Shown: positions 1 to 27,873, numbered from the stretch's first letter. The stretch: DNA of 32,000 nt from an uncultured Candidatus Saccharimonas sp. (GCA_963528875.1 CAURWT010000003.1:30001-62000); one strand, 5' to 3'. Program-made: numbers and translations. Notes: generated from the letters alone by a model not told the origin.

Positions 1-1449
1 GAATCAACTAATTGGTTCATTCTTGGCAAATCTAAATTAAACGAAACTGATATGTTAGCCACGCCAGAAGGAAACCCAGCGCAAGTTTGGGATGCTTTTC
101 AGTATGATGATATTTCTGATCGCTTATTGGAAATGAGCGTGGAGCGTTCGGTTAAATTTCCATATAATGTGCAGTCTGGAATAGCTGATATAAAGCTAAA
201 TAATTATGATGATTATTTCTCATTTTTCGAAACAACAAAAAAGAGCCCGATTGCTGAATATATTCTGCCAAAACGACCTTTGAGGCTTTATTTAGGCGCA
301 AAAAATGTAGGAACGGTTCCGGTTTTTGTTGGGAATACTGAAAAAATACCGACTTACAACAATGATAAAACGATTACTTGGTCTGCATTAGATTTTTTGA
401 GTGATATTGCCGAGACAAAAGTTAATCGAACTGTTATGTTGAGGGATGTTTCAACCGATGCGCTCTTGAAAGAAATATTTAAACAATACGGAATGGATGA
501 AAACCAATACCGTATAAGTAGGGGACAAAATATAATTCCATTTGTCTATTTTAAAAATGATGACAATGTTAGCACGATATTAAAGAATTTGGTTCAGGCC
601 GAGAATGGTTTATTGTGGCTCGATGAGCAAGGGATAATTCGTTTTGAGAATCGCAGTGGTAATTTGGATAAAACGCCAGTAATGACATTTAACGCAAGCA
701 ATATTATTGATATTGAAACAGAAAAAGCTAATGATGTGGTTAATTATGTTAGCATTAAAAGTGATGTGCGAGAAGTCCAGCCTTTGCAGCCAATTTTTAG
801 TGCGGAAGGTAAAAATGAGTGGGTTATTCAGCCTAGAGCCAGCCTGTCTATATGGTTAACTCTTGATGACCCTGCTTGGAGTGTTCGCCCTATCTCGGTT
901 GGCCAAAAAACTGGTGAAAGTTGGGTGGAATTTAAAAAAGGCGAGAAAATCGACAATTCAGGTATTCAATTGAAAGGTGAGCTTTTTGCTGATGCTTACA
1001 AATTGACAGTCAATAACCAAGGAGCAAGCCCTTCAAAAATATCAAAAATTGAACTATGGGGCGAGAGTGCAAAAGTCGTAGATACCATTAAATATGAGGC
1101 TTTTGACCGTGAAAGTATGGAGCGCTACGGTAAAAAAGCGATTGAAATTACCGACAATCCATATTTTGGCGATTATCGTAACTGCGACCTTTTTGCGACA
1201 GATATTTTAAAGAAATATGCTAGTTTTTCGCCCACAATTTCAATGAAAGTTAAAGGCAATCCAGCCCTACAATTGGGAGATGTTATTAGTGTAAATTATA
1301 AAGATAAAGGCGACTATTTGGTGACAGGTATTAAGCTGAACCTAAGCGATAACGGCTATGAAACAACTATAACTGGAAAACCACATATTGTTTCGAAATC
1401 ATTTATTTTGGATAAGTCTATTTTGGATGGAAAGGATCTATTGGCGTAA
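1..1449 (+). CDS. Phage tail/baseplate structural protein, 5' end truncated by window edge
   Basis: The frame of ORF 52..1449 has no stop back to base 1 (ESTNWFILGKSKLNETD-MLATPEG...), so the gene probably starts upstream. It is 465+ aa and lies just before small coupled genes and the lysis cassette, the usual place for tail tip/fibre genes. Family call is by context only. Confidence 0.55.
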   Translation, partial: ESTNWFILGKSKLNETDMLATPEGNPAQVWDAFQYDDISDRLLEMSVERSVKFPYNVQSGIADIKLNNYDDYFSFFETTKKSPIAEYILPKRPLRLYLGAKNVGTVPVFVGNTEKIPTYNNDKTITWSALDFLSDIAETKVNRTVMLRDVSTDALLKEIFKQYGMDENQYRISRGQNIIPFVYFKNDDNVSTILKNLVQAENGLLWLDEQGIIRFENRSGNLDKTPVMTFNASNIIDIETEKANDVVNYVSIKSDVREVQPLQPIFSAEGKNEWVIQPRASLSIWLTLDDPAWSVRPISVGQKTGESWVEFKKGEKIDNSGIQLKGELFADAYKLTVNNQGASPSKISKIELWGESAKVVDTIKYEAFDRESMERYGKKAIEITDNPYFGDYRNCDLFATDILKKYASFSPTISMKVKGNPALQLGDVISVNYKDKGDYLVTGIKLNLSDNGYETTITGKPHIVSKSFILDKSILDGKDLLA

Positions 1450-1718
1450 TGGCGATTGAAAAAAATATTGAATTTCAGGGCGACAGAGTGGTAAATTCGC
1501 TGGGTGGAAATATAAAACTAAACCAGACTACGGGTGAGCTGATTGTATCAAAAAATGGGGTGATTTTAACCAAAATTAATAAGGACGGCTTTGTTTATTC
1601 GGAAGAAAATGGCACTCGACGAATTTTAATTGGAAGGCATCCTAAAACTGGGGCTGTGGGTGAGTGGGTTAGCGTGGTTGGTGAAGATGTGATTGAGATT
1701 TTAGAGAATGAAACCTAA
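1449..1718 (+). CDS. Small phage protein, unknown function
   Basis: 89 aa ORF. Its start overlaps the upstream stop (TAATG at 1447-1451), implying translational coupling. Confidence 0.5.
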   Translation: MAIEKNIEFQGDRVVNSLGGNIKLNQTTGELIVSKNGVILTKINKDGFVYSEENGTRRILIGRHPKTGAVGEWVSVVGEDVIEILENET

Positions 1719-2331
1719 TAAATTTATTGATCGAAGTGAATTTATCAAGCCTGTTGTAGTTTTTGAATACAACGGTAGCTTTATGAGTAATATTAAAACT
1801 TTTGATATTGAGCATAACCTGCCGTTCGTGCCATTGATTATAGGCGAGTATAGTTTAAATAGCGATTTCTCGAATGCTCGAGATTTCCGTTTTTGGACAA
1901 GTGGAGATGAAAACTTTCTTGTTGGCGCGTTAGAGAAAACTATTCGGTTTGCTATTCGAGGGGTCGATCCACCGCGAAAAGTTTATGTGCGTTTAATTGG
2001 TATTGCTCCGCCTGATTACTCGGGAGAAGTGACGCCATTAAAGCGAAGAATATTAAATGATTCAAGAAATAGAAGCCTGAAGATTTTAAACTTTGGGACA
2101 TTTAGAAATGATAGCACTATTGAACATAATTTGGGTTATTTGCCGATGGTTTATTTTTGGGAAGAAACGGTTATCTTTAGAAAAAATAATTCATCTATTC
2201 TTGACTTAGAAAAATGCTTGAGGCCAAGTAGCCCTGTTAACAGCATTAATAATAACGAAGTTCATATATCTGGAAGAGGTGATGGAAAAGGATATTATGC
2301 TATTTTTGGAGATGCAATAGATGAAAGTTAA
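1708..2331 (+). CDS. Phage protein, unknown function (structural module)
   Basis: 207 aa ORF. ATG 1708 lies 11 nt inside the upstream gene (ATGAAACCTAA), so it is coupled. Confidence 0.5.
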   Translation: MKPNKFIDRSEFIKPVVVFEYNGSFMSNIKTFDIEHNLPFVPLIIGEYSLNSDFSNARDFRFWTSGDENFLVGALEKTIRFAIRGVDPPRKVYVRLIGIAPPDYSGEVTPLKRRILNDSRNRSLKILNFGTFRNDSTIEHNLGYLPMVYFWEETVIFRKNNSSILDLEKCLRPSSPVNSINNNEVHISGRGDGKGYYAIFGDAIDES

Positions 2332-2713
2332 TAGTTTTGTTAAAAATTCTGATTTCTGGCAGATGTCACTTGATGGTGAAAGTGTTGTTTTGGATTTTAG
2401 CTTGCCAGCTGGAGATTTTGAGAACGGATATAAGACTAAAAGAGTTTTTCCTAGTAGGAACCGCAAAGGTTTGATTATTGATCACTATTGTTTTAATGGA
2501 CAATGGGGATCAAGAAACGAGTATAAAATTAGCTCTAATGGTTCAACAGAGAATAGGATATATTTTGAGATAATTAGGCGTGATGATGACATTATTGTTA
2601 CAGCTGAATACATTGAAATTACAGATGGAGAGGGAAGCCGGAATAATCAAACGATCTCCTCACAGAAGGTGGATGTGAAAATTAGGCTGAACTTCATTAA
2701 GAATAATTGGTGA
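2321..2713 (+). CDS. Phage protein, unknown function
   Basis: 130 aa ORF with the same 11-nt overlap geometry (ATGAAAGTTAA). It ends with TGA at 2711-2713. Confidence 0.5.
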   Translation: MKVNSFVKNSDFWQMSLDGESVVLDFSLPAGDFENGYKTKRVFPSRNRKGLIIDHYCFNGQWGSRNEYKISSNGSTENRIYFEIIRRDDDIIVTAEYIEITDGEGSRNNQTISSQKVDVKIRLNFIKNNW

Positions 2714-2794
2714 TGTGGTTTTATCACTCGACTATTTATTTTTACAATATGGGTAGATAGAAATTACAATTTAAAGGAGAAGCTAAAAACTAAT

Positions 2795-3187
2795 ATGCAA
2801 ATAACAGTTGGTGAAATCGGGACTTTTATTGCATTTCTGGTTGGGTTAATTGGCGGAGTTTTAACACTTTTTCGCCACGCTAAAAATGGCCTGAAAGAAA
2901 TGCTAAAAGGAGAGTTCGAAGGGGTAAATGAAAATTTTGATTCTGTTCGAAGGGAAATACACGAAGTTCGAGATATTGGGCAGAACAACGCCAAAAACGG
3001 CAAGCGTAACGAAATTTTATTAATGATTAATGTTCAGCCTGAAAAAGTTGATGAAATCGAGCGAGCGTTTGAAGAATATAAAGCGTTAGGAGGTAATGGT
3101 TATATAGATAGTTTAATTGAAGCTTGGCGTGAAGAATATGAGAAAGATTTAATTAAGGCTAGACTCAAAAGAAAGGAGAAGAAATAA
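2795..3187 (+). CDS. Holin-like small membrane protein
   Basis: 130 aa with one N-terminal hydrophobic helix (IGTFIAFLVGLIGGVLTLF) followed by a charged helical tail. AAGGAG at 2774-2779. Its stop overlaps the endolysin start (TAATG 3185-3189). The holin call is positional. Confidence 0.45.
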   Translation: MQITVGEIGTFIAFLVGLIGGVLTLFRHAKNGLKEMLKGEFEGVNENFDSVRREIHEVRDIGQNNAKNGKRNEILLMINVQPEKVDEIERAFEEYKALGGNGYIDSLIEAWREEYEKDLIKARLKRKEKK

Positions 3188-4851
3188 TGAGTAAATATAC
3201 ACAGGTAGCAACTCCGAACCTTGATATTAGAGCAAGTCGAGGCTGGTGCTTACAATACGCAGATGATGTAGTTAATGCACCTGTTCGTAGGGAATCGGCA
3301 GGACTAGAATACCTAGCTCAAAGAGCAGCAGGAAATATCCACGAAGAAGAACCTCCTGTTGGACTATGGGTTCCGGTCTTCTTTGATATCACAAGCGGAG
3401 AATATGATCCTTACGAGCATGTAGGCTGGGCTTACAAACACGGAGACGGAAGGATCGAGATTCACGACAGTGAAGTGCATAGTGGGGCTAGAGGAATTTA
3501 TAACTCGATTGCTGAAATCTGTGGCTGGTTTGGTAAATTCGGACTTCGCTATCTTGGTTGGAGTGAACGAATCGGCGGCGTTCAAGTTGTTGAAAAGAGT
3601 GACAATGTTCGTGTAGTAAATTCAGGTGTTGGTGTAAATGTTCGATATGAACCTACAACTCAATCTGGAGTGTTCGCAACTTATCCAGATGGTTCAGATA
3701 TTGAAATGGCAGGTTGGGTTTATGGTGAAAATGTAAATGGTGAAGATCGCTGGTTTAAATCTCAGCGTTCAGGTGTTTATCTTCATTTCTCAGCCTTTGA
3801 TGAAAAAGAAGGATCACTACCAAATCTGGGAGATTTTCGAAAAGCTCCACAACCAGAAAGTAAAGCAGTAGTTCCAGAGAATAAAGCACCAGAATTTATT
3901 GATTTCGAAAAAGAGTTCGACTTTGTAGATGAAGTAGTTCCTGCTCATGTATCGAATCAGTTCTATGGACGAAAGAATCTCAAAGATGATAACGGAAAAT
4001 ACTTTGGCAATATTCCACAAGATTATGAAATCCAGAAAAAGTTTGTAGATGAATTACAGCGAGATTCGCAACCGATTCGTGAAATTACAGTTCATAACAC
4101 AGCAAATGATTCAATTGAGGCGACAACAAATGAATTTAGGCGCAAGGAAAGCTTTAAATCTGCTCATCTTGTAGTTTCGAATGAGAAAATTGTTCAAGTT
4201 GTGCCAAAAGGGAATACGGCTTTCACAAATGGTAATCACGAGAGTAATATCGAAAGCTTTACGATCGAGTTTCTAGACAATGTAACTGATGAACGTTATG
4301 TTGAAGTTCTAAAGAAAGTTTCGCAAGCGCTTGGCGTGGATAAAATCGGAAAGCACCGCGATCATTCTTCAACGGCTTGCCCAGCGCAACTTTCGGACGA
4401 AAGATTTGGTAAAATTTTAGCGAAAGTTAAGGGTGAAGATGAAGCTAAGCCTGAAGCACCAAAGCAGCCTGAAAATGAGCCAAAAACACCTGAAAACGAA
4501 GGTATTGCAACTCAAAATGAGGCTGAAAATAAAGTGTCGCAAAATGTTAAAAATGAAGTTAAAGCTGAACGAAGAGCTTTAACAGAAAAGGAGATTGAAA
4601 TGTTGGATAAAATGCAAGAAGAAGTGGCTAAAAATATCGCGAATACGGATTATGAGCCACGAATTAGCGAAAAGGCGAAAACTACAGTCTATTTCATTGC
4701 TGACCTTGGAATTTTAACAAATATGTTAATTGCAACAATTTGTGTAATTTTAATTCCAAATGCAACGAAAGAAATTTTGGCTGTTAGTGGCGCAATTGCT
4801 ACAGCATTCGCAGGATTAAAACCTATTTTCAAACTAGGAGCTAAAAAATAA
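3187..4851 (+). CDS. Multidomain endolysin: Cys/His peptidase-like (CHAP/NlpC-like) N-domain, SH3b-like domain, Amidase_2 (N-acetylmuramoyl-L-alanine amidase) domain, charged linker, C-terminal 2-TM anchor
   Basis: GWCLQY...HVGWAY (Cys/His pair). VNVRYEPTTQSGVFATYPDGSDIEMAGWVYGENVNGEDRWFK (SH3b-like). ITVHNTAND...AHLVVS...GKHRDHSSTACPA (Amidase_2/PGRP-type Zn ligands). E/K/P-rich linker. C-terminal hydrophobic stretches TTVYFIADLGILTNMLIATICVILIP and ILAVSGAIATAFAGL. Confidence 0.85.
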   Translation: MSKYTQVATPNLDIRASRGWCLQYADDVVNAPVRRESAGLEYLAQRAAGNIHEEEPPVGLWVPVFFDITSGEYDPYEHVGWAYKHGDGRIEIHDSEVHSGARGIYNSIAEICGWFGKFGLRYLGWSERIGGVQVVEKSDNVRVVNSGVGVNVRYEPTTQSGVFATYPDGSDIEMAGWVYGENVNGEDRWFKSQRSGVYLHFSAFDEKEGSLPNLGDFRKAPQPESKAVVPENKAPEFIDFEKEFDFVDEVVPAHVSNQFYGRKNLKDDNGKYFGNIPQDYEIQKKFVDELQRDSQPIREITVHNTANDSIEATTNEFRRKESFKSAHLVVSNEKIVQVVPKGNTAFTNGNHESNIESFTIEFLDNVTDERYVEVLKKVSQALGVDKIGKHRDHSSTACPAQLSDERFGKILAKVKGEDEAKPEAPKQPENEPKTPENEGIATQNEAENKVSQNVKNEVKAERRALTEKEIEMLDKMQEEVAKNIANTDYEPRISEKAKTTVYFIADLGILTNMLIATICVILIPNATKEILAVSGAIATAFAGLKPIFKLGAKK

Positions 4852-5351
4852 TGGCCAAATTGACTTTACCGCACCCAAATAAAGATTTTGTGCCGCTATC
4901 TCCGCTAACGGCGCAAGAACTTGATGAAATGGTGGCTAATAATAAAGCGGTGGCTGATTTTGCGAATGGCTTAGCAAGTGGAAAAAATATTGATGATAGC
5001 TCTATTGAACCGATTAAACTCAAACAGTCTAACGTTCAGATTATTCAATCTGGAAATCTAGCCACTCAGCATAAAACGCAACAAGTGCACACTCAGTGGT
5101 TCGATCAGACATATTGGAACGCCAATTTCTTCCGACAAAGGAATGAAAAAACAAGAATTGAATTTCCTAAAGCGTTTAAAAATCCACCAGCTGTAGCAGT
5201 TCAAATTTTGAATGCAGGAATAAACCCGCTGACTGTATTTAGCACGGTGGTTACTACGACCTATGTTGAATTTACAATGGCATCTTTAGCTAGAATTAGT
5301 CAAGAGCTTGACGTTACTGTTTCGGTGATTGCGACAGGGGAGTTGGCTTAA
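4851..5351 (+). CDS. Phage protein, unknown function
   Basis: 166 aa ORF coupled to the endolysin stop (TAATG 4849-4853), last gene before a terminator. Confidence 0.5.
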   Translation: MAKLTLPHPNKDFVPLSPLTAQELDEMVANNKAVADFANGLASGKNIDDSSIEPIKLKQSNVQIIQSGNLATQHKTQQVHTQWFDQTYWNANFFRQRNEKTRIEFPKAFKNPPAVAVQILNAGINPLTVFSTVVTTTYVEFTMASLARISQELDVTVSVIATGELA

Positions 5352-5376
5352 AGAGAATAGTGAAAGTTGAGAGAAT

Positions 5377-5405
5377 AAAAAGAACCTGTTTTGGGTTCTT
5401 TTATT
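5377..5405 (+). terminator. Intrinsic terminator after the lysis operon
   Basis: AAAAGAACC-TGTTTTG-GGTTCTTTT hairpin followed by a T-run. Confidence 0.6.
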
Positions 5406-5447
5406 TCGCACTTTCTGGTATAATAAAAGAAAAAAGAGGTGGTTGCT

Positions 5448-5672
5448 ATGGAAATAGGACTATTGATGCGTTATGATAAAGTCTACGGATTTTTTCATGA
5501 AGATGATGAAACGAAGCCAGTTGTGCTGATTTATTCAGGAGAACGGACGGCAGAGTTTAGCACTTTCAGTTATTTAGTTGATGAAGCAAAAGGAGTGGAA
5601 CAACACTACAAGTTCCTTCAAAATGATATTCAACTAAGCCCTTTCAAAGACGGTTGGATAGCAGCAGAATAA
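5448..5672 (+). CDS. Small accessory (moron-like) protein, unknown function
   Basis: 74 aa. The ATG at 5448 is preferred over the GTG at 5439 because AGAGGTGG sits 5-12 nt upstream. Extended -10 TGGTATAAT at 5416-5424 and its own terminator. Confidence 0.5.
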   Translation: MEIGLLMRYDKVYGFFHEDDETKPVVLIYSGERTAEFSTFSYLVDEAKGVEQHYKFLQNDIQLSPFKDGWIAAE

Positions 5673-5700
5673 ACCACTCGTCATGAGTGGTTTTCTATTG
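5672..5700 (+). terminator. Intrinsic terminator
   Basis: AACCACTC-GTCAT-GAGTGGTT followed by TTTTCTATT. Confidence 0.65.
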
Positions 5701-5714
5701 TATTTTTATTAACT

Positions 5715-5739
5715 AAAAGAACCCAAAACGGGTTTTTTT
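5715..5739. terminator. Bidirectional hairpin terminator
   Basis: AAAA-GAACCC-AAAAC-GGGTTT-TTTT, with A-run and T-run flanks on both sides. Confidence 0.5.
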
Positions 5740-5929
5740 ATTTATCCTTATTTTTATCACCCCAGCGTTTTTCTGTACCAGCCTTACCATGCCCTCGAGC
5801 GACTTTCGAGCGTTCTTCAGGGAGAGGTTTTTCCATAACCCTGAACCACCTTTTGAGCCATTTTTACTCATAATGGTTCTTTTAGTAAGTTTTTTGAACT
5901 AATTTAATTATGCCAGGCTAATAGTTTTA

Positions 5930-5961
5930 ATAAAAAAGAAAACACCCCGAAGAGTGTTTTC
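5930..5961 (-). terminator. Terminator of the DUF3800 gene
   Basis: GAAAACAC-CCCGAAGA-GTGTTTTC (5938-5961). On the minus strand it is followed by a T-run (plus-strand AAAAAA 5932-5937). Confidence 0.55.
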
Positions 5962-6075
5962 AGCTGCTTACAGGTCGGTATAGGAAAAACTATACTTACT
6001 AACTAAAGCTCACTGTAAGGCTTATGCTACGTTATTATTTTATATTATTTTTTTAAAAAAGTCAATACTTTTTTT

Positions 6076-6729
6076 CTATTTTCCAAACTTACCTTGTGGA
6101 AAATGTTGGCGGCTTTCTATTCTACTTTCAATTATTTTTAAGAAATGCTGTTTTCCACTCTTTATGGATTGATAGATAGTATTACTAATAACATCAGCGG
6201 CTTGTAGCCCTAAAGAACTTTTAGAATTTGCTTGATCAACTGTAATATTTCCATAAAAACCCGTCATAGTATATAGTTTAATTCTTATGTAGTCACTTAA
6301 TGAATTCATTGATGCAACTTTAGTTGTTCTCTCATCAAACAGCATGTGTATATCCTGAGTAGGGTATTTTTTAGCAATCTCTATAGCCAACAAACCTGAA
6401 AAATAATTATATACAAGGTTCTTAGGCTTACCTTGTTTCAACATAGCGACATTATTTTTATCTGCAATAAAGTAGAAAATTTCGTGGTCTGGTTGTTTTG
6501 CCATTAAATGTAAAAATTTCTGCCTATCAACAAAAGATAAATCGTATGACTTAAGCTCTTCAAGAGCTTTACCATTTTGAGCTTTCCCAACATTAAGAGC
6601 GGTCCTTTTAACTAATCTCTTTATTCTTTTAGATCCAGAATTCCTATCATCAAAAACAACAGCCGCAAGAACAAAATATCTTCCACCTCTTCCTAAATTT
6701 CCAGATTCATCAATAAAAACTGTAATCAT
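6076..6729 (-). CDS. DUF3800-family protein
   Basis: 217 aa. N-terminal MITVFIDESGN and C-terminal GLQAADVISN match the DUF3800 hallmark motifs (xIDESG ... LQxAD). Own promoter: TATAAT 6737-6742 (minus), 7 nt before the ATG. Confidence 0.65.
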   Translation of the reverse strand: MITVFIDESGNLGRGGRYFVLAAVVFDDRNSGSKRIKRLVKRTALNVGKAQNGKALEELKSYDLSFVDRQKFLHLMAKQPDHEIFYFIADKNNVAMLKQGKPKNLVYNYFSGLLAIEIAKKYPTQDIHMLFDERTTKVASMNSLSDYIRIKLYTMTGFYGNITVDQANSKSSLGLQAADVISNTIYQSIKSGKQHFLKIIESRIESRQHFPQGKFGK

Positions 6730-6861
6730 ATCTGTTATTATATATCAATACTGGCAGAAAAACAACAAAAGGGTACCTTATAGGAATTGTAAAATATACA
6801 ACAAAATTACAATAGTCTATCTATGGCACTATTTTAATAATCTTATTAACCCGTAGGTGAT

Positions 6862-7215
6862 TTATCGATTATCTCCGCTGCCGTGAATCTTATTGCGTTT
6901 TTGTCGGCTAGCTAATTTATTAAGGTTAGTTTTTGCAATATCTTCAAGTTCAATATCATTATAAAAGGCTAGGGCGGAAAGATACCACAATACATCGCCA
7001 AGTTCTTTTTTAAGTTTTTCGCGATCTTCTTGTGTAGTTTCAAAAGCTCCGCCCTTGTCTCGAATCATTTTCTTAATTATTTCTAAAACTTCACCAGTTT
7101 CACCAGCCAAACCTAAGGCTTTTTCCATATAGCCGTTATAGCGAGCAGAGTCTGTAGTAGCGTTATGTGCAACGTCTGTTTGAATTGCTTGATTTTGGTA
7201 TTCATTAAAATTCAT
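6862..7215 (-). CDS. mazG: MazG-like nucleoside triphosphate pyrophosphohydrolase (small all-alpha NTP-PPase)
   Basis: 117 aa. YQxxA...LGLAGETGEVLEIIKK...ELGDVLWYLSALA is the typical EExxE/D metal-binding helix pattern of the MazG family. GGAG 8 nt upstream of the ATG. Confidence 0.8.
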   Translation of the reverse strand: MNFNEYQNQAIQTDVAHNATTDSARYNGYMEKALGLAGETGEVLEIIKKMIRDKGGAFETTQEDREKLKKELGDVLWYLSALAFYNDIELEDIAKTNLNKLASRQKRNKIHGSGDNR

Positions 7216-7276
7216 TTCTTAACTCCATTTATTTTACCTTATCTATAATAACATTTAATGATAATATAGAACAAGG

Positions 7277-7305
7277 TTGACTTTAATTAATTATTTTGAT
7301 ATAAT
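7277..7305 (+). promoter_or_regulatory. Consensus sigma70-type promoter
   Basis: TTGACT (7277-7282), 17 bp spacer, TATAAT (7300-7305). Confidence 0.6.
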
Positions 7306-7326
7306 TAAAAAGCTATATGGAGCAAC

Positions 7327-7376
7327 AAAAACGCCTCACGCTGATGAAAATCAGTGTAGGGGCGTTTTGCTTTCTT
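7327..7376 (+). terminator. Terminator/attenuator-like hairpin in the leader of the 7448 gene
   Basis: AAAACGCCTCACGCTGA-TGAAAA-TCAGTGTAGGGGCGTTTT (imperfect stem, GC-rich base) followed by GCTTTCTT. Starts about 20 nt after the predicted transcription start. Confidence 0.45.
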
Positions 7377-7447
7377 GGAAAAATGAGACAGCCGAAAACC
7401 AACCGCTCCGTTTTACTAAAAATCTTGTCAAGACTTTTGGAGGGAAA

Positions 7448-7852
7448 ATGGAAAAAAGTTTTATTTTATGCGGCCGTCGAATAAAAACTATGCGCGAACG
7501 GCTTGGCAAAGCTTGCGACTTAATAGACAATGATCAATTTTTAGGCGTTTTTAGAAATCGTCAAATTAACTATGAAAAAGAATTTGACCAATCTGTTAAA
7601 ATGGTTAAATTAATGAAAAAAGCAGGTAAAATTAAGAATACTAGTCATTATTTTGCTAAGATTTGGAAAAAAGAAAATATTAATAAGACATTAAAAATCG
7701 TGCGAGAATTTTTAAATCGTCAAATTTCTAAACTAGCCGAAAAACGCGAGCAGAAAAAACAAAATGAACGCAATGAGATAATTTCGAATAGCTTTAATAA
7801 CTCGGGCTATTTAAAATTTCAAGCAATGAAACATAATTTTAATTTAAGTTAA
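7448..7852 (+). CDS. Small basic protein, possible HTH DNA-binding regulator (XRE- or excisionase-like)
   Basis: 134 aa from the ATG at 7448 (GGAGGG just upstream). GRRIKTMRERLG...LGVFRNRQINYEKE weakly resembles an XRE-type HTH. Lies next to the integrase. The longer track ORF from 7277 is rejected. Confidence 0.45.
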   Translation: MEKSFILCGRRIKTMRERLGKACDLIDNDQFLGVFRNRQINYEKEFDQSVKMVKLMKKAGKIKNTSHYFAKIWKKENINKTLKIVREFLNRQISKLAEKREQKKQNERNEIISNSFNNSGYLKFQAMKHNFNLS

Positions 7853-7876
7853 TTCACAATTTGACAAAACTATAAA

Positions 7877-7903
7877 AACAGTTTCTAAAACTGTTGTTTA
7901 TTG
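7877..7903 (+). terminator. Intrinsic terminator
   Basis: AACAGTTT-CTA-AAACTGTT followed by GTTTATTG. Confidence 0.5.
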
Positions 7904-8123
7904 CGTTTTAGCTGAATTATTATATAATATTATTTAATATTTGTAAAATATAAGAGCATAAATGCTAAATATGTAAAATACTATGCAATATTCTCTATTA
8001 TTTAGCAATAAAGTATTTTATTTTTTAATGAGTGGAAAATGATAAAAATTTAAGTTTTTAGGTTCTAATTAGAATTCTTTTTGATTTCTTTTTAATTTTT
8101 AATTATAGCTCAGAAAGGAGTAT

Positions 8124-8990
8124 ATGTTTTTAGAAATATTTGATAGTTTTTTATATGATGAAATAATTTCTATTGGGTATAGTAGAAAAACAGAAGAAAG
8201 ATATGTAGTTTTTTCAAGATTAATCACTAAATTTTTCGGCAATATAGAAATATCAAGATTGGATGATAGAAAAGTTAGAGAATGGAGAGAATATCTTGCT
8301 AAATATCAATCGCCAGATACAGTTAGGGGTTATGTGATTTGCCTTAGGAAATTTATTAGATATTGTGAGCGAAGGTTTGATATGAAAATTTCTGCCGAAA
8401 ATATAAAAGTTCCAAGGAGAGAAAAAAGAAAAATTGATATATTGACAAATGACGAAGTTATCGATTTCATAAACGCCATCGGCGAAAAGAAACGTGGATA
8501 CAGTGAAGTTAATCGTCTCAGAAATATCGCAATAGCTAAGCTAATTTACTGTTCTGGATTAAGAGTTGGGGAAGTTTGTAAATTAAATAAAAATTCTATC
8601 AAAAATAGACAAATGACGATTGTGGGTAAAAGTTTAGAGCCGAGACTGTGTTTTATTAATCGAGACACTGAACTTGCTATTTATGAGTATTTAAGCGCTC
8701 GAAACGATATTGAGCCCGCACTTTTTATCTCTAACCAAAACGGAAAGAGAATAACTGAGTCGAATATTCAAAGGATTTTTCAGAGAGTTTGCGAAAATTC
8801 GAATGGTAAATTTGAAAAGGTTCATCCACACACTTTACGACACTGTTTTGCAACCAGTATGCTTGATCGAGGAGTAGATATTGTTTATATACAGGATTTT
8901 ATGGGTCATCAAAGTTTGGACACTACAAAAATCTACACTCACTACTCAAATAATAAACTCAGAGAAGTTTATGAGAAAGCAAATATTTAA
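8124..8990 (+). CDS. int: Tyrosine recombinase / phage integrase (XerC/D-like)
   Basis: 288 aa. C-terminal catalytic signature HPHTLRHCFATSMLDRGVDIVYIQDFMGHQSLDTTKIYTH, with the upstream R in GLRVGE. AAAGGAG 5 nt before the ATG. Confidence 0.9.
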   Translation: MFLEIFDSFLYDEIISIGYSRKTEERYVVFSRLITKFFGNIEISRLDDRKVREWREYLAKYQSPDTVRGYVICLRKFIRYCERRFDMKISAENIKVPRREKRKIDILTNDEVIDFINAIGEKKRGYSEVNRLRNIAIAKLIYCSGLRVGEVCKLNKNSIKNRQMTIVGKSLEPRLCFINRDTELAIYEYLSARNDIEPALFISNQNGKRITESNIQRIFQRVCENSNGKFEKVHPHTLRHCFATSMLDRGVDIVYIQDFMGHQSLDTTKIYTHYSNNKLREVYEKANI

Positions 8991-9006
8991 AACTTATGCT
9001 TAGATA

Positions 9007-9035
9007 TTGACTTTTTGAAAAATGTGTGATATAAT
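9007..9035 (+). promoter_or_regulatory. Consensus promoter driving the tRNA-Gly-like gene
   Basis: TTGACT (9007-9012), 17 bp spacer ending in TGA (extended -10), TATAAT (9030-9035). Confidence 0.6.
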
Positions 9036-9103
9036 GAAAACATAATTGAATAGTACATAAAAAACCATAAACTAAGTCCGAACTGTAGTTCGGCAATAAT
9101 GCT

Positions 9104-9166
9104 GCGGGTTAGAGCGCTTCCTTGCCATGGAAGAGGCCAGGAGTTAGAGTCTCCTAACCCGCACCA
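9104..9166 (+). tRNA. tRNA-Gly(GCC)-like, 63 nt, lacking the 5' half of the D-stem and the D-loop (mini-tRNA or pseudo-tRNA)
   Basis: GCGGGTT-AGAGCG-CTTCC-TTGCCAT-GGAAG-AGGCC-AGGAG-TTAGAGT-CTCCT-AACCCGC-A-CCA. Perfect 7-bp acceptor, 5-bp anticodon and 5-bp T stems, anticodon GCC, encoded CCA. Only 6 nt lie between the acceptor and anticodon stems. The T-loop has A where C56 is normally conserved. Confidence 0.6.
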
Positions 9167-9182
9167 ATGTAGATATTGAAAT

Positions 9183-9207
9183 GACTGCTTAGGCAGTCTT
9201 TATTTTA
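9183..9207 (+). terminator. Intrinsic terminator after the tRNA-like gene
   Basis: GACTGC-TTAG-GCAGTC followed by TTTATTTTAT. Confidence 0.6.
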
Positions 9208-9225
9208 TGACAGTAGTATAAATTA

Positions 9226-9252
9226 CTATAGTTTCTATAGTTTCTATAGTTT
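9226..9252. repeat. Perfect 3 x 9 bp tandem direct repeat (CTATAGTTT)
   Basis: CTATAGTTT at 9226-9234, 9235-9243 and 9244-9252, read directly. Confidence 0.9.
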
Positions 9253-9292: not shown

Positions 9293-9364
9293 TTTAGTGA
9301 GCGGTTAAAGCCGAAGAATTAGGAGGGAAAAGTCTTTTTTCTTCAGCTTGAATCGCTCACTAAA
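9293..9364. other. 72-nt extended imperfect inverted repeat (long hairpin)
   Basis: TTTAGTGAGCG-GTTA-AAGCCGAAGAA-[19-nt loop TTAGGAGGGAAAAGTCTTT]-TTCTTCAGCTT-GAAT-CGCTCACTAAA. An 11-bp outer helix and an 11-bp inner helix (one C/A mismatch) separated by a 4x4 internal loop. Confidence 0.7.
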
Positions 9365-9384
9365 GGTTATAGATTATTTAAACA

Positions 9385-9417
9385 AAAAGAATGACTGTTC
9401 GTTGCTCAGTCACTCTT
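9385..9417 (-). terminator. Terminator of tRNA-Leu
   Basis: Minus strand: GAGTGACTG-AGCAACGAA-CAGTCATTC followed by TTTTTGTTT. Confidence 0.6.
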
Positions 9418-9419
9418 TT

Positions 9420-9507
9420 TGGTACCGCGAGCCGGACTTGAACCGGCACGAGCGTAATGCTCACCAGATTTTGAGTCTAGCGTGTCTACCAATTCCACCA
9501 TCGCGGC
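9420..9507 (-). tRNA. tRNA-Leu(CAA), type II with long variable arm
   Basis: Reverse complement reads GCCGCGA-TG-GTGGAATTGGTAGACAC-G-CTAGA-CTCAAAA-TCTGG-TGAGCATTACGCTCG-TGCCGG-TTCAAGT-CCGGC-TCGCGGT-A-CCA. Canonical cloverleaf, GG in the D-loop, TTCAAGT T-loop, anticodon CAA. Confidence 0.9.
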
Positions 9508-20712: not shown

Positions 20713-20740
20713 TTGACTTTTTTAGAGAGTGTGCTATAAT
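20713..20740 (+). promoter_or_regulatory. Pilin promoter (leaderless configuration)
   Basis: TTGACT (20713-20718), 16 bp, TGC-TATAAT (20735-20740), 8 nt, ATG 20749. Confidence 0.55.
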
Positions 20741-20748
20741 TGAAGAGT

Positions 20749-21252
20749 ATGAAAAAGCTTAAGCTAAATAGTGGTTTTACAATTATTGAGGTTGTTTTAG
20801 TTCTTGCGATTGCTGGCCTGATATTTCTAATGGTATTTTTGGCTCTACCGGCATTGCAGCGTTCGCAGAGGGACACTCAAAGAAAACAGGTTATTCCAAA
20901 AATTGCGGCAATTTTAGAGGAGTCGAGAACGAACAATAAAGGTAATTACGTGAGTGATTATGATACTAATAATGAGCTTGAAAATTTTATTAAAAACTAT
21001 CTAAGGCCCCACGAGAGTGAGTTTTTGGATCCAAGTACAGGGCAATTTTACACGTTTTTAAAGTGTGGAAGTAAGGTAAATTGTGGGACAGGGGTTGGCC
21101 AAGATAATCTTGAAATTGGTGAAATTTACTATAACTCAAATGCTGATTGCGAGGTTGGGAGATTCGTTGACAAACCTGCTAATGCAACGAATTTCATTTT
21201 ACTTACAAGACTTGAAACTGGCGGATTATATTGTTTTTCTTCTTCAAATTAA
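20749..21252 (+). CDS. Type IV pilin / pseudopilin with prepilin-type N-terminal methylation motif
   Basis: MKKLKLNS-GFTIIEVVLVLAIAGLIFLMVFLALPAL: class III signal peptide (G/F cleavage site, E at +5, hydrophobic helix). Cys pairs in the C-terminal domain. Confidence 0.85.
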   Translation: MKKLKLNSGFTIIEVVLVLAIAGLIFLMVFLALPALQRSQRDTQRKQVIPKIAAILEESRTNNKGNYVSDYDTNNELENFIKNYLRPHESEFLDPSTGQFYTFLKCGSKVNCGTGVGQDNLEIGEIYYNSNADCEVGRFVDKPANATNFILLTRLETGGLYCFSSSN

Positions 21253-26209: not shown

Positions 26210-27199
26210 ATGATTCTTGGGATTGATGAAGTTGGTCGTGGAGCGTGGGCTGGGCCTTTGGTTGTAGGTGCTTGCGTTTTGAATGGTGCCAAAATTGAAG
26301 GGCTAACAGATTCGAAAGCTCTTTCTAAAAAGCAGCGCGAGAATTTAGCAAAAGGAATTGATGAAAGTTCTGCAATTGTTGGCTTGGGTTGGGTTTCGAA
26401 CGATGAGATTGATGAAATTGGTTTAAGTGCTGCGTTAAAACTTGCAACAAGGCGAGCTGTTAAGGAAGTGCAGCTAAAATGTAAAAAACAAAATATTAAA
26501 TTTGATGAAATTATTATTGATGGCACTGTAAATTTCTTGGCTGGCACGCCACTTGAAAAATACGCCTCCACTCTTAAAAAGGCTGATTTACTAATTTCAA
26601 GTGTTTCTGCGGCTGCAATTTATGCAAAAGTTGCGAGGGATAATTTTATGGCAGAGCTTTCGAAAAAACCTGAGTTTGCACCATTTGGTTTTGAGAGCCA
26701 CGCGGGCTATGGGACATCAAAACATAGAGCGGCTTTATCTGAATTTGGAGTGAGCAAAGTTCATCGCAAAAGTTTTAAACCTATTGCGGAATTTTTAGAA
26801 AATTCTAAAAATAAGAATATGAATACCTTTAAGGTGAAGAAAGCTGAAAAAATTACCACAAAAGAGCTTGGTGATAAGGCTGAGGATTTTGTGACGGAAT
26901 TCCTAAAACAAGAAAAGCACGAGATTTTGGCGCGAAATTGGCGAACAAAATTTTGTGAAATTGATATTGTTTCAAAATATGGTGAAAATTACTATTTTAC
27001 AGAAGTTAAATTTCGAAAAAATAATGATTTTGGCGGTGGAGAGGCTGCAATTTTAAAGAATAAGGTTGATCAAATGAGATTTGCGGCAGAATTTTTTGCC
27101 TATAAAAATAAGTTAAAAAATAGAGAGATGCGGCTTTCTGTGGCAATAGTTGAGGGTGAGAATTTTAAAAAGTTTGATTGGTTTGAAATTACCGATTAG
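26210..27199 (+). CDS. rnhB: Fusion protein: ribonuclease HII (N-terminal) + YraN/UPF0102-family endonuclease-like domain (C-terminal)
   Basis: MILGIDEVGRGAWAGPLVVGACVL...TDSKALS...IIDG...SVSAAAIYAKVARD...HAGYGT..H...HRKSFKP is RNase HII. After a ~20-aa linker, LGDKAEDFVTEFLKQEKHEILARNWRTKFCEIDIVSKYGENYYFTEVKFRK...FGGGEAAI...K matches the YraN pattern. ATG 26210 follows AGGAAA. Confidence 0.8.
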   Translation: MILGIDEVGRGAWAGPLVVGACVLNGAKIEGLTDSKALSKKQRENLAKGIDESSAIVGLGWVSNDEIDEIGLSAALKLATRRAVKEVQLKCKKQNIKFDEIIIDGTVNFLAGTPLEKYASTLKKADLLISSVSAAAIYAKVARDNFMAELSKKPEFAPFGFESHAGYGTSKHRAALSEFGVSKVHRKSFKPIAEFLENSKNKNMNTFKVKKAEKITTKELGDKAEDFVTEFLKQEKHEILARNWRTKFCEIDIVSKYGENYYFTEVKFRKNNDFGGGEAAILKNKVDQMRFAAEFFAYKNKLKNREMRLSVAIVEGENFKKFDWFEITD

Positions 27200-27873
27200 C
27201 AATTTTGCAAAATATTTTGCATTGCTGATTTTTCAGAGGCAGTTACCCAAATTGAGTATTTTTTCTTGATTGAAATTTGGCGAGAAATATATTCACAGCG
27301 AAAATCTTTATTTGAGGGAAGCCAAGAGGCGGCGTCAGAATCACCTTTTTGCTGATTGGCTGGGCCATCTGAAGCTAAAAGATTTAGCGGATCATTCGCA
27401 AATTCGATTCGTTTTTCTTTCGAAAATTGTTGAGCGCCTTTTTGCCAAGCATCAGAAAGTGCAACAATGTGGTCGATTTGAACAGCAGAAGTATTTTGCT
27501 TGCGTGAAAAATCAATTTCTTTACCAGTGTAAGGGTCTTTTAGGGTTCCGCTTAAAATTTTGCAGTCTGAATTTTCTACAACATTTATTAAATCACGTTT
27601 TAAAATACGGTTTCGTGTATCGCAACCACTAGAATCTTTTGCCCAGCCTTTACCAAATTGCTCGCGAGAATAACCAGTTTTTGGTGAACGGCCTTTAACT
27701 TCAAGTGAGTTTAAATCGGTTAAAGAAGTTTGAAAATCTGATTTTTTGTTTGAATTTGGTTTTGAAGTTTGCCAAAAATCTGGATTTGCTAAAATTGCTG
27801 CAATTGCGATCGTGGCTATAAAAAATAAACCAAAAATTCTCCTTCTTCGAAAAATGCTTTGCTTTTTTCTCAT
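27196..27873 (-). CDS. Membrane-anchored/secreted HNH-type nuclease (DUF1524, GmrSD C-terminal-like)
   Basis: 225 aa. N-terminal anchor IFGLFFIATIAIAAILA. GYSREQFGKGWAKDSSGCDTRNRILKRDL...VQIDHIVALSDAWQKGA...NDPLNLLASDGPANQQKGDSDAASWLP is the DUF1524 His-Me finger pattern. Confidence 0.7.
   Translation of the reverse strand: MRKKQSIFRRRRIFGLFFIATIAIAAILANPDFWQTSKPNSNKKSDFQTSLTDLNSLEVKGRSPKTGYSREQFGKGWAKDSSGCDTRNRILKRDLINVVENSDCKILSGTLKDPYTGKEIDFSRKQNTSAVQIDHIVALSDAWQKGAQQFSKEKRIEFANDPLNLLASDGPANQQKGDSDAASWLPSNKDFRCEYISRQISIKKKYSIWVTASEKSAMQNILQNC

What the first reader, a model, noticed from the sequence alone, without database searches (positions are those of the whole stretch)
9007..9207. 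Self-contained transcription unit for a 63-nt D-arm-less tRNA-Gly(GCC)-like RNA next to the phage integrase
A consensus promoter (TTGACT-17-TATAAT) is followed by a ~60-nt leader with a 7-bp hairpin (CCGAACT-GT-AGTTCGG, 9079-9094), the tRNA-like sequence, and an intrinsic terminator. The RNA keeps perfect acceptor, anticodon and T stems, anticodon GCC, discriminator A and CCA. Between the acceptor and anticodon stems it has only AGAGCG, so the 5' D-stem strand and the whole D-loop (about 12 nt in a normal tRNA-Gly) are missing. The T-loop reads TTAGAGT, so the C56 that normally pairs with D-loop G19 is also gone, which fits the missing D-loop. A perfect 7-bp acceptor helix is very unlikely by chance, so this is a deletion derivative or a selected mini-tRNA rather than a random att remnant. 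D-arm-less tRNAs are established in metazoan mitochondria; I know of none as normal bacterial or phage features. Possible roles: a decoy for tRNA-targeting nucleases, a primer, part of attP, or a dead gene.
Basis: partly seen in the sequence, partly recalled or inferred. Interest (0 to 1): 0.7.

Follow-up and report, generated by a model that had tools for sequence, protein, structure and literature searches.

The report
Prophage attachment site, not mini-tRNA gene
The 63-base "D-arm-less tRNA-Gly" is real sequence, but it is the right-hand junction (attR) of a prophage inserted into the host's normal tRNA-Gly gene, so it is an ordinary attachment-site tRNA fragment with a few unusual details.

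Summary
The anatomy is confirmed: promoter 9007-9035, hairpin 9079-9094, 63-nt tRNA-like sequence 9104-9166 and terminator 9183-9198.

Bases 9108-9166 are 59/59 identical to positions 18-76 of the host's full-length tRNA-Gly(GCC). That genuine tRNA has the same UUAGAGU T-loop and A73. All four att forms were found:
- attB: empty site with an intact tRNA (L030).
- attL: intact tRNA followed by phage early genes (L209).
- attP: free phage, int-promoter-mini-tRNA-phage terminators-early genes (L201, L121, L202).
- attR: this window.

Only GCGG (9104-9107) lies outside the shared core. It is most likely a relic of a complete phage-borne tRNA-Gly gene. Sister phages still carry one as attP (L213-216, L123).

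Several results argue against a working tRNA:
- Relatives carry uncompensated A:C mismatches in the "acceptor" stem.
- A lysogen with a nonsense-mutated integrase has a decayed copy (CCA to TTA).
- RNAfold prefers a rod over the three-arm fold.

The host is a Saccharibacteria (Ca. Nanogingivalis-like) bacterium. One point remains unexplained. The promoter and leader hairpin are conserved across the whole integrase family, so a short transcript is probably made.

The parts
1..9107 (+). Right-hand part of a prophage: tail, endolysin, DUF3800/MazG morons, integrase and the P arm. The window starts inside the prophage.
   Evidence: PHROGs and Pfam find a tail protein, an endolysin/amidase and an integrase. 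The region is 88-97% identical to phage contigs L119-L122, L033 and L034, and that homology stops at 9166/9168.
8124..8990 (+). Tyrosine integrase, 288 aa, XerC/D-like, with no arm-binding domain detected.
   Evidence: Pfam Phage_integrase scores 5e-31 and PHROG_1 integrase 1e-49. Members of its 90% identity cluster are named 'XerD [Caudoviricetes sp.]'.
9007..9035 (+). Phage promoter P1 (TTGACT-17-TGtgaTATAAT) in the P arm.
   Evidence: It matches 11 of 12 consensus positions plus TG. It is conserved in every relative with 78-100% integrase identity. An equivalent promoter is present in most of the relatives examined at 35-58% identity.
9079..9094 (+). Leader hairpin (7 bp, 2-nt loop) in the phage P arm.
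   Evidence: The stem is kept with compensatory or completely different sequences in relatives: ACGAACT/AGTTCGT, CGAACC/GGTTCG, CCGAG/CTCGG, GCTGAG/CTCAGC.
9104..9107 (+). GCGG, the phage-borne relic of the 5' acceptor strand. It is the only part of the 'mini-tRNA' outside the att core.
   Evidence: The four-way alignment of attB, attL, attP and attR shows identity starting at 9108. Variants are GCAG in L119-L122, L199 and L200, and GCGA in L207 and L210.
9108..9166 (+). The 59-bp common core of attB, attP, attL and attR, equal to tRNA-Gly(GCC) positions 18-76 (D-stem 3' strand through CCA). The crossover lies somewhere inside it, probably at the anticodon loop 9122-9128.
   Evidence: The core is 59/59 identical in L030 (attB), L209 (attL), L201 (attP) and the window (attR). 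L203 has a host-type TACCCGC 3' strand, which places the crossover 5' of position 66. In the wider family the tRNA-matching segments begin or end at the anticodon loop (L126, L133, L138).
9167..9212 (+). Host DNA: the native 3' flank and intrinsic terminator (stem 9183-9198) of the interrupted tRNA-Gly gene.
   Evidence: Terminator scan. It is homologous to the terminator after the intact tRNA-Gly in L030, with 88.9% identity over 9108-9222. It differs from what follows the core in the free phage.
9423..9507 (-). Host tRNA-Leu(CAA), a neighbouring gene that is not part of the element.
   Evidence: ARAGORN and Rfam at 55.2 bits. The same synteny is seen in L033, L210 and L030.

Best explanation
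Window 9104-9166 is attR, the integrase-proximal junction of a temperate phage of Saccharibacteria (Ca. Nanogingivalis-like host) that has integrated by Campbell-type site-specific recombination into the host's tRNA-Gly(GCC) gene.

The phage's attP is a truncated copy of that tRNA gene. It consists of promoter P1, a 60-nt leader with a hairpin, four bases of the 5' acceptor strand (GCGG), 59 bp identical to tRNA positions 18-76, and then phage terminators.

The XerC/D-like integrase recombines attP with the chromosomal tRNA gene inside the 59-bp core. By inference the crossover is at the anticodon stem-loop, with AGAGCGCTTCC and GGAAGAGGCCA as the half-sites.

After integration there are two products:
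- attL carries the host promoter, the host 5' part with its D arm, and the phage 3' part with phage terminators. This is an intact tRNA-Gly.
- attR, seen in the window, carries the phage promoter, leader and GCGG joined to the 3' 59 nt and the host terminator. This is the 'mini-tRNA'.

The perfect 7-bp 'acceptor helix' has two sources. GTT at tRNA positions 18-20 happens to equal positions 5-7. GCGG is most likely inherited from an ancestral complete phage-borne tRNA-Gly gene that lost 13 nt (positions 5-17) of its D arm. Sister phages still carry a complete tRNA gene as attP.

Shown here: the four att forms, the core boundaries, phage versus host ownership of each flank, and decay of the fragment in a defective lysogen. 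Inferred: the crossover position, descent by deletion, and that the RNA is not a working tRNA.
For: 1. Core identity. A genuine tRNA-Gly(GCC) reads GCGGGTTTAGCTCAGTTGTTAGAGCG... and has an identical 3' 59 nt, T-loop and A73 in many contigs.

2. All four att sites were found and aligned.
- attB is L030: M20 peptidase, host promoter, intact tRNA (1195-1270), host terminator, then a tRNA-Leu remnant.
- attL is L209: the same M20 peptidase (92% identical), host promoter, intact tRNA (3962-4037), then phage P' terminators and the SLT and YqaJ early genes.
- attP is L201, whose P arm is identical to the window's over the aligned stretch, together with L121, L119, L122, L199, L200 and L202. The order is int, P1, hairpin, mini-tRNA, two terminators, then YqaJ exonuclease, a resolvase-like gene and a DnaD-like gene.
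- attR is the window, L033 and L035, and also L034 and L203 in other hosts.

3. Homology of the phage contigs to the window ends at 9166/9168.

4. Descent from a full tRNA.
- L213-L216 (integrase 56% identical) have a complete tRNA-Gly as attP and attR.
- L123 (52%) has a full tRNA-Gly and L130-132 (41%) a full tRNA-His, each 110-165 nt after int on the same strand.
- The phage-borne 5' halves in the L123 clade show decaying D stems and a 7-nt duplication.

5. Against a working tRNA.
- G3 to A (L121 group) and G4 to A (L207/L210) give uncompensated A:C mismatches.
- L203 has a U7:U66 mismatch.
- In L210/L211 int carries a GAG to TAG nonsense codon, and the fragment has 4 substitutions in 59 nt, including GCACCA to GTATTA.
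- The RNAfold minimum-energy structure of the mini RNA is a rod at -28.2 kcal/mol, against -22.8 for the three-arm fold, with anticodon-stem and T-stem pair probabilities of about 0.01. The full tRNA folds into the cloverleaf.

6. The literature describes exactly this class of object. tRNA gene fragments at the ends of integrated elements are mis-called as tRNAs (PMC9897764). [quoted passage not shown]
Against: - The attL of the very genome the window comes from lies outside the window. It is inferred from L209, which has the same host locus and the same P' as L201.
- Promoter P1 and the leader hairpin are under evident purifying selection across the family, and the att-site reading alone does not explain this.
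- The 7-nt 5' acceptor strand is better conserved than the 9 nt preceding it. D-arm deletions that retain the acceptor strand recur in at least three further lineages (L125, L212, L140), interleaved with full-length forms on a rough integrase tree. This could hint at selection for the mini form.
- The crossover point has not been mapped.
- No expression data are available.
Confidence: 0.9

Rival explanations
1. A selected mini-tRNA. The phage maintains the promoter-driven, CCA-ending, D-arm-less tRNA-Gly mimic as a functional RNA in addition to its att role. It might act as an RNase P/Z processing module that defines the 3' end of the int or P1 transcript at the leader hairpin, as a decoy for a tRNA-targeting nuclease or tRNA-binding protein, or as a regulator.
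For: - P1 is near-consensus in every lineage even where the leader has diverged to about 55% identity. The leader hairpin is kept with unrelated stem sequences.
- The free phage supplies its own two terminators right after CCA.
- The 5' acceptor strand varies less than its upstream neighbours.
- L125 has a different acceptor pair set (GCGAGTG/CATTCGC) that still pairs 7 of 7.
- D-arm-less forms occur in at least four lineages.
Against: - Uncompensated A:C mismatches at 3:70 and 4:69 are fixed in whole sub-lineages.
- The copy at attR decays when int is dead.
- The predicted fold is a rod rather than a tRNA-like shape.
- P1 and the hairpin are equally conserved in relatives whose att fragment has no 5' acceptor strand at all (L126, L133) or only a 5' half (L138). 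Their conservation therefore does not depend on a closed tRNA-like structure.
- The 59 nt must stay identical to the host tRNA anyway, in order to rebuild attL.
Confidence: 0.1
2. A plain att remnant with chance pairing. The phage attP only ever carried the 3' 59 nt of the tRNA, as in the classic arrangement. The four upstream bases GCGG complement the 3' end by coincidence, and there was never a phage-borne full tRNA.
For: - Only 4 nt need explaining, a chance of about 1 in 256 at one fixed position. The GTT match is intrinsic to the tRNA sequence.
- Relatives show GCAG and GCGA, so the match is not strictly kept.
- Other family members have no 5' strand (L126, L127, L128).
Against: - GC-G/A-G/A persists in lineages whose adjacent leader is otherwise unalignable (L207, L202).
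- Independent lineages L125, L212 and L140 also join an acceptor-like 5' strand directly to TTAGAGC.
- Sister clades carry complete tRNA genes at the same place after int.
Confidence: 0.08
3. A host tRNA-Gly pseudogene created by an internal deletion and unrelated to the prophage.
For: The 3' 59 nt and the terminator are host-like.
Against: - The sequence left of 9108 (GCGG, hairpin, P1) is phage DNA. It is found, together with the mini-tRNA, in free phage genomes next to early genes and in three different host contexts.
- The prophage-free locus has an intact gene.
Confidence: 0.01

Closest known systems
Classic prophage or genomic-island attachment sites in tRNA genes (for example P4, P22, HP1, mv4, Ms6 and L5-type tyrosine integrases; the Islander concept of a regenerated tRNA plus a displaced fragment)
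   Same: A tyrosine integrase lies next to attP. A common core made of tRNA sequence includes the 3' end. An intact tRNA is rebuilt at one junction and a partial copy is left at the other. The partial copy is flagged by tRNA finders (PMC10865867 introduction; PMC4383910 abstract; PMC9897764).
   Different: - The core is long (59 bp) and reaches back to the D-stem.
- The fragment sits at the integrase-proximal end, with its 5' side facing int.
- The phage arm adds a near-consensus promoter, a structured leader and 4 nt of 5' acceptor strand, so the fragment closes into a tRNA-like helix.
- The host is a Saccharibacteria (CPR) bacterium.
tRNA gene fragments mis-annotated as tRNA genes (van der Gulik et al. 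2023, RNA Biol, PMC9897764)
   Same: A partial duplication of a tRNA gene produced by integration of a mobile element scores as a tRNA. Here Rfam gives 37 bits, above the gathering score of 29.
   Different: The fragments described there are simple direct repeats. Here the fragment is completed by a relic 5' strand and has its own promoter.
tRNA-dependent lysogeny in actinobacteriophages (Guerrero-Bustamante and Hatfull 2024, PMC10865867)
   Same: There is an interplay between a phage-borne tRNA gene of the same isotype and integration into the host tRNA gene. Sister phages here (L213-216, L123) carry a complete tRNA-Gly.
   Different: In that system attP and attB share only about 10 bp, the host tRNA is destroyed, and a separate phage tRNA complements it. 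Here the phage tRNA-derived sequence is itself attP and the host gene is rebuilt at attL. That system's defining features were tested here and not met.
D-arm-less tRNAs of metazoan mitochondria
   Same: The geometry is the same: acceptor, anticodon and T arms with a short connector. ARAGORN -mt calls the element.
   Different: Those tRNAs are functional, co-evolved with dedicated translation factors, and occur as genes in their own right. This element is a deletion copy of a normal bacterial tRNA at an att site. It shows uncompensated mismatches, decay and a predicted non-tRNA fold.

Membership tests
Prophage att site within a tRNA gene (displaced or duplicated tRNA fragment) | A tyrosine integrase gene lies next to the fragment. 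| tested here: met
   int at 8124-8990 ends 114 nt before the fragment.
Prophage att site within a tRNA gene (displaced or duplicated tRNA fragment) | The fragment is identical to part of a genuine tRNA gene of the host. | tested here: met
   59/59 identity to positions 18-76 of tRNA-Gly(GCC) in L030 and L209.
Prophage att site within a tRNA gene (displaced or duplicated tRNA fragment) | An intact tRNA sits at the opposite prophage junction (attL), with the same core as a direct repeat. | tested here: met
   L209 3962-4037 is an intact tRNA-Gly between the host M20 peptidase and phage early genes. This comes from a homologous lysogen. The window itself starts inside the prophage.
Prophage att site within a tRNA gene (displaced or duplicated tRNA fragment) | An unoccupied attB exists at the same chromosomal locus. 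| tested here: met
   L030: M20 peptidase, intact tRNA-Gly, the same terminator, then tRNA-Leu remnant.
Prophage att site within a tRNA gene (displaced or duplicated tRNA fragment) | The free phage genome carries the core (attP) between int and the other prophage end. | tested here: met
   L201, L121, L119, L122 and L202: int, P arm, core, P' terminators, then YqaJ, resolvase-like and DnaD-like genes.
Prophage att site within a tRNA gene (displaced or duplicated tRNA fragment) | Strand exchange is catalysed by the integrase within the core. | not testable with these tools
   This needs in vitro or in vivo recombination. Only bounds were obtained. The crossover lies between position 18 and position 66 (L203). 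The anticodon loop is inferred from family comparison.
Functional canonical bacterial tRNA | A complete cloverleaf with a D arm, called by a standard bacterial tRNA finder. | tested here: not met
   There is no D-stem 5' strand or D-loop. ARAGORN in bacterial mode does not call it even at a relaxed threshold. Rfam aligns it only by skipping 15 D-arm model positions.
Functional canonical bacterial tRNA | Stem pairing is maintained by compensatory change among homologues. | tested here: not met
   Acceptor pairs 3:70 and 4:69 become A:C without compensation, and 7:66 becomes U:U in L203. The other stems are invariant because they are host tRNA sequence.
Functional canonical bacterial tRNA | Processing, CCA integrity and aminoacylation. 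| not testable with these tools
   No RNA data are available. CCA is lost (TTA) in the L210/L211 copy.
D-arm-less (mitochondrial-type) tRNA | Acceptor, anticodon and T arms with a short connector in place of the D arm. | tested here: inconclusive
   The geometry is present in the sequence and is called by ARAGORN -mt. The thermodynamic model gives the three-arm fold -22.8 kcal/mol against -28.2 for a rod, with stem probabilities of about 0.01.
tRNA-dependent lysogeny (Hatfull) | A short (~10 bp) core so that the host tRNA is not reconstructed, with a separate complementing phage tRNA. | tested here: not met
   The core is 59 bp and attL is an intact tRNA. No other tRNA is seen in the phage parts examined.
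Phage-encoded tRNA gene | A complete tRNA with its own promoter and terminator in the phage genome. | tested here: not met
   The promoter and terminators are present in attP but the tRNA lacks 13 nt. The feature is met only in sister phages L214/L216 and L123.

The most novel reading that the evidence does not exclude
The phage family deliberately keeps a promoter-driven, terminator-bounded, CCA-ending tRNA-Gly mimic without a D arm as a functional small RNA that also serves as attP. It might act as an RNase P/Z-cleaved module that sets transcript ends next to int, or as a decoy that titrates a tRNA-directed host factor in a CPR bacterium with a minimal tRNA set. D-arm loss that retains the acceptor strand would then have been selected repeatedly (window clade, L125, L212, L140).
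Probability: 0.1. Interest if true: 0.7.

Novelty: new member of a known kind. Interest (0 to 1): 0.28.

Why it matters
As found, this is mainly a cautionary case. A sequence that passes Rfam's tRNA threshold and looks like a self-contained D-arm-less tRNA gene turns out to be a prophage junction.

It has modest positive value in three respects.
- It defines attB, attP, attL and attR, with a 59-bp core, for a temperate phage of oral Saccharibacteria. These organisms have few genetic tools, and an int-attP module with a known target could be useful for them.
- It exposes an integrase family whose attP ranges from a complete tRNA gene, through D-arm-deleted copies, to 3'-only or 5'-only halves.
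- All of these attP forms lie behind a conserved promoter and hairpin whose role is unknown.

Tried and rejected
- BLAST of the region and of the 9.4-kb prophage end against 50,697 GenBank phage records found nothing.
- The single metagenome scan, using the promoter pattern, gave only 3 contigs. These were useful (L201) but too few for statistics.
- A scan for the P' arm in IMG/VR found only the 4 attP contigs already known and no attL. attL was eventually reached through homologues of the phage YqaJ gene.
- I first read the sequence after CCA in L006, L007, L011 and L021 as a third host context. Gene content showed it is the phage P' arm.
- The weak DNA match of L011 and L034 to window 20735-20885 is only the conserved N-terminus of pilin-like genes.
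- Rfam found no known RNA in the conserved P' region or the leader.
- A column-wise covariation count on alignment A3 was abandoned. The hairpins of L202 and L207 do not align in register, so they were folded individually instead. Individual z-scores are weak (-1.2 to -2.5), and the argument rests on their recurrence at the same position.
- I did not try to walk to attL of the window's own contig.

Full report
**1. The observation**

The sequence is as described.
- A near-consensus promoter with an extended TG lies at 9007-9035 (11 of 12 positions).
- A 7-bp hairpin lies at 9079-9094.
- A 63-nt tRNA-like sequence at 9104-9166 ends in A-CCA.
- A terminator lies at 9183-9198.

Rfam's tRNA model scores 37.0 bits (gathering score 29) and skips 15 D-arm positions. 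Standard ARAGORN does not call it. ARAGORN in metazoan-mitochondrial mode calls a 63-base D-arm-lacking tRNA-Gly(gcc) (its label: 'D-loop mtRNA-Gly(gcc)'). A 288-aa tyrosine integrase ends at 8990. Everything upstream in the window is phage: a tail protein, an endolysin, DUF3800/MazG and the integrase. Downstream lie host genes: tRNA-Leu(CAA) on the minus strand, sortase, GltX, MurT-like ligase, a type IV pilus ATPase and ribosomal proteins.

**2. What the 63 nt are made of**

A 28-nt probe from the element hit 32 IMG/VR stretches. Most of them are full-length tRNA-Gly(GCC) genes reading GCGGGTTTAGCTCAGTTGTTAGAGCG..., with exactly the same anticodon arm, variable loop, T arm (T-loop TTAGAGT), 3' acceptor strand, A73 and CCA.

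The unusual T-loop is therefore a trait of the genuine tRNA in these bacteria. It is not a correlate of D-arm loss. The window element equals the real tRNA minus 13 nt (positions 5-17). Identity to the tRNA begins at G18 (9108). Because positions 18-20 (GTT) happen to equal positions 5-7, only GCGG (9104-9107) is extra.

**3. All four att sites**

- Homology of related phage contigs to the window stops at 9166/9168, the end of CCA.
- **attB.** L030 is the same chromosomal locus in a related host without this prophage. It carries an M20 peptidase, a host promoter, an intact tRNA-Gly (1195-1270), a terminator homologous to window 9183-9198, and a tRNA-Leu remnant occupied by a different prophage.
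- **attP.** L121/L006, L119, L122, L120, L199, L200, L201 and L202 show int, P1, hairpin and mini-tRNA followed by two intrinsic terminators. After these come a lytic transglycosylase, a YqaJ exonuclease, a resolvase-like gene and a DnaD-like gene. This is the circular phage configuration. L201 has a P arm identical to the window's over the aligned stretch.
- **attL.** Homologues of the YqaJ gene led to L209. It carries the same M20 peptidase (92% identical to that of L030), a host promoter, an intact tRNA-Gly (3962-4037), and then the P' arm of L201 with the phage early genes.
- **attR.** The window, L033 and L035 are attR in this host. L034 and L203 are attR in other Saccharibacteria hosts.

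The four-way alignment shows a 59-bp common core. The left flanks pair attB with attL and attP with attR. The right flanks pair attB with attR and attP with attL. This is textbook Campbell integration. It also shows that the terminator in the window belongs to the host gene while the promoter, leader and GCGG belong to the phage.

**4. Host**

The window's GltX falls in a 90% identity cluster that contains a protein named 'Candidatus Nanogingivalis sp.' (Saccharimonadota). Members of the integrase cluster are named 'XerD [Caudoviricetes sp.]'. Prophages are known to be common in Saccharibacteria (120 reported in PMC10746230). I found no description of their att sites.

**5. Where GCGG and the promoter come from**

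Across the integrase family (and IMG/VR loci), the region after int nearly always has the same layout. A strong sigma-70-type promoter is followed by a 60-100-nt leader with a hairpin, and then by tRNA-derived sequence on the same strand. What follows the leader varies.

| Loci | Integrase identity | tRNA-derived sequence after the leader |
|---|---|---|
| L213-L216 | 56% | Complete tRNA-Gly gene with a second, host-like promoter, seen both as attP (L214, L216) and attR (L213, L215) |
| L123 | 52% | Full tRNA-Gly |
| L130-132 | 41% | Full tRNA-His |
| L124, L008, L031 | about 52% (L123 clade; L124 52%, L008 and L031 assigned by P-arm sequence) | 5' halves with a 7-nt D-loop duplication or broken D stems |
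| L125, L212, L140 | 51-58% | D arm deleted; acceptor-like 5' strand joined directly to TTAGAGC |
| L126, L127, L128, L133 | 39-48% | Only the 3' part of the tRNA |
| L138 | 35% | Only the 5' half of tRNA-Thr up to the anticodon loop, in a free phage genome |

The simplest reading is that the ancestral attP was a phage-borne tRNA gene. The part 5' of the crossover is not needed to rebuild the host gene, so it decays by point mutation, duplication or deletion. The tRNA-matching segments of the 3'-only and 5'-only forms meet at the anticodon loop. This, together with the dyad AGAGCGCTTCC/GGAAGAGGCCA around it, suggests the crossover occurs there. That is the classical anticodon-loop sublocation (from my own knowledge of Williams 2002). 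L203, which has a host-type TACCCGC 3' strand, shows that the crossover lies 5' of position 66.

**6. Is the mini-tRNA itself functional?**

Evidence against:
- Within the window clade the 5' strand is GCGGG (window, L201, L202, L203), GCAGG (L119-L122, L199, L200) or GCGAG (L207, L210). The last two give uncompensated A:C mismatches at 3:70 and 4:69.
- L203 has a U7:U66 mismatch.
- In L210/L211, at the same site in the same host species, int carries a GAG to TAG nonsense codon. The fragment there has 4 changes in 59 nt, including GCACCA to GTATTA.
- ViennaRNA predicts a rod at -28.2 kcal/mol rather than the three-arm fold at -22.8, with anticodon-stem and T-stem probabilities of about 0.01. 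The full-length tRNA folds as a cloverleaf.

Evidence for some function of the transcription unit:
- P1 remains near-consensus in all lineages.
- The hairpin is retained with unrelated stems and with loops of 2-13 nt.
- The phage supplies terminators after CCA.
- The 7-nt acceptor strand changes less than its upstream neighbours.
- D-arm-less forms are interleaved with full forms on a rough neighbour-joining integrase tree.

However, P1 and the hairpin are just as conserved where no closed tRNA-like structure exists (L126, L133, L138). Their conservation therefore does not argue specifically for a mini-tRNA. I put about 0.1 on a selected RNA function.

**7. Comparison with what is known**

The object belongs to the well-known class of tRNA-gene att sites. 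[quoted passage not shown] The partial copy at the other junction is often mis-called as a tRNA (PMC9897764).

It is not tRNA-dependent lysogeny, because the core is 59 bp and attL is intact. It resembles metazoan D-arm-less tRNAs only in geometry.

The unusual details are these:
- The core is long.
- The fragment lies at the integrase-proximal junction with its 5' side facing int.
- The phage arm contributes a promoter, a leader hairpin and a relic acceptor strand.
- The host is a CPR bacterium.

**8. Verdict**

I rate it a new member of a known kind, with interest about 0.28.

Limits of this analysis:
- attL was seen in a homologous lysogen, not in the window's own genome.
- The crossover point and the direction of evolution (full to mini) are inferred.
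- No expression data are available.
- The function of P1 and the hairpin is unexplained.

Noticed in passing
window 9007-9094; L213 3364-3530; L133, L137-L143, L123-L125 just after int: A near-consensus promoter plus a leader hairpin directly downstream of int, pointing into attP, is seen in most of the integrase-family relatives examined (35-100% identity). This holds whatever tRNA-derived sequence follows. The hairpin stems are unrelated in sequence. Its function is unknown.
   Followed up: partly
L138 10783-11010 (IMG/VR 3300033121_000420): A free phage genome (endolysin, int, then transglycosylase, exonuclease, resolvase) has an attP made of a promoter plus only the 5' half of tRNA-Thr(GGT) up to the anticodon loop, followed by a terminator. 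Integration would rebuild the tRNA from a phage-supplied promoter and 5' half, the mirror image of the usual 3'-half replacement. attB, attL and attR were not seen.
   Followed up: partly
L214/L216 3364-3610 (attP) and L213/L215 (attR): A sister phage (integrase 56% identical, mouse-gut metagenome) uses a complete, ARAGORN-valid tRNA-Gly(GCC) gene as attP. The gene has two promoters and phage terminators.
   Followed up: partly
L030 1195-1270, L209 3962-4037, L123 11020-11095: The genuine tRNA-Gly(GCC) of these Saccharibacteria has the T-loop UUAGAGU (A instead of C at position 56), the D-loop AGUUGUU without the usual GG, and discriminator A73. The D-loop/T-loop tertiary pairs must be non-canonical.
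   Followed up: no
L210 2243-3300, L211: A defective lysogen at the same site in the same host species. int is interrupted by an in-frame TAG (GAG to TAG). The attR fragment has mutated (AGGCC to AGTCC; GCACCA to GTATTA).
   Followed up: yes
L030 1360-2480; window 9423-9507: The neighbouring tRNA-Leu(CAA) gene is itself an integration target. In L030 only its 3' end (TGGTACCGCGA) remains next to a different integrase on the minus strand.
   Followed up: partly
L208 3801-4100: A phage with closely related early genes (YqaJ 91% identical) and the same P' motifs sits next to tRNA-Gln(TTG). This points to exchange of int-attP modules between otherwise similar phages.
   Followed up: no
L121 1195-1290; L209 4125-4215; L141, L137 and L214 downstream of the terminators: A conserved phage P' element follows the two terminators: TTTCAATTGAGGCG / TCGGGG...hairpin...CTCCGTAG...TTAACAATTTGG. 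It is shared by phages that target different tRNAs. There is no Rfam match. It may be an early control region.
   Followed up: no
window 9223-9249, 9293-9364, 9383-9421: The host intergenic region between the att site and tRNA-Leu contains a 9-nt tandem repeat (TTTCTATAG, copy number differs in L210), a 26-nt inverted repeat, and a 15-nt inverted repeat that looks like the tRNA-Leu terminator.
   Followed up: no
window 6076-7215 (minus strand): DUF3800 and MazG-like pyrophosphohydrolase genes are transcribed against the late genes, between the lysis module and int. This is a moron-like position, with possible defence or counter-defence cargo. The pair is absent from or replaced in some relatives (L204-L207).
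   Followed up: no
L130-L132, about 60 nt after the tRNA-His: In a more distant relative, the complete tRNA-His(GTG) after int is followed by a second copy of its anticodon stem-loop segment (GGATTGTGGTCCAAATC). This may be a secondary or remnant core site.
   Followed up: no
window 27196-27873 (minus strand): The host encodes a GmrSD-C/HNH-type restriction endonuclease-like protein.
   Followed up: no
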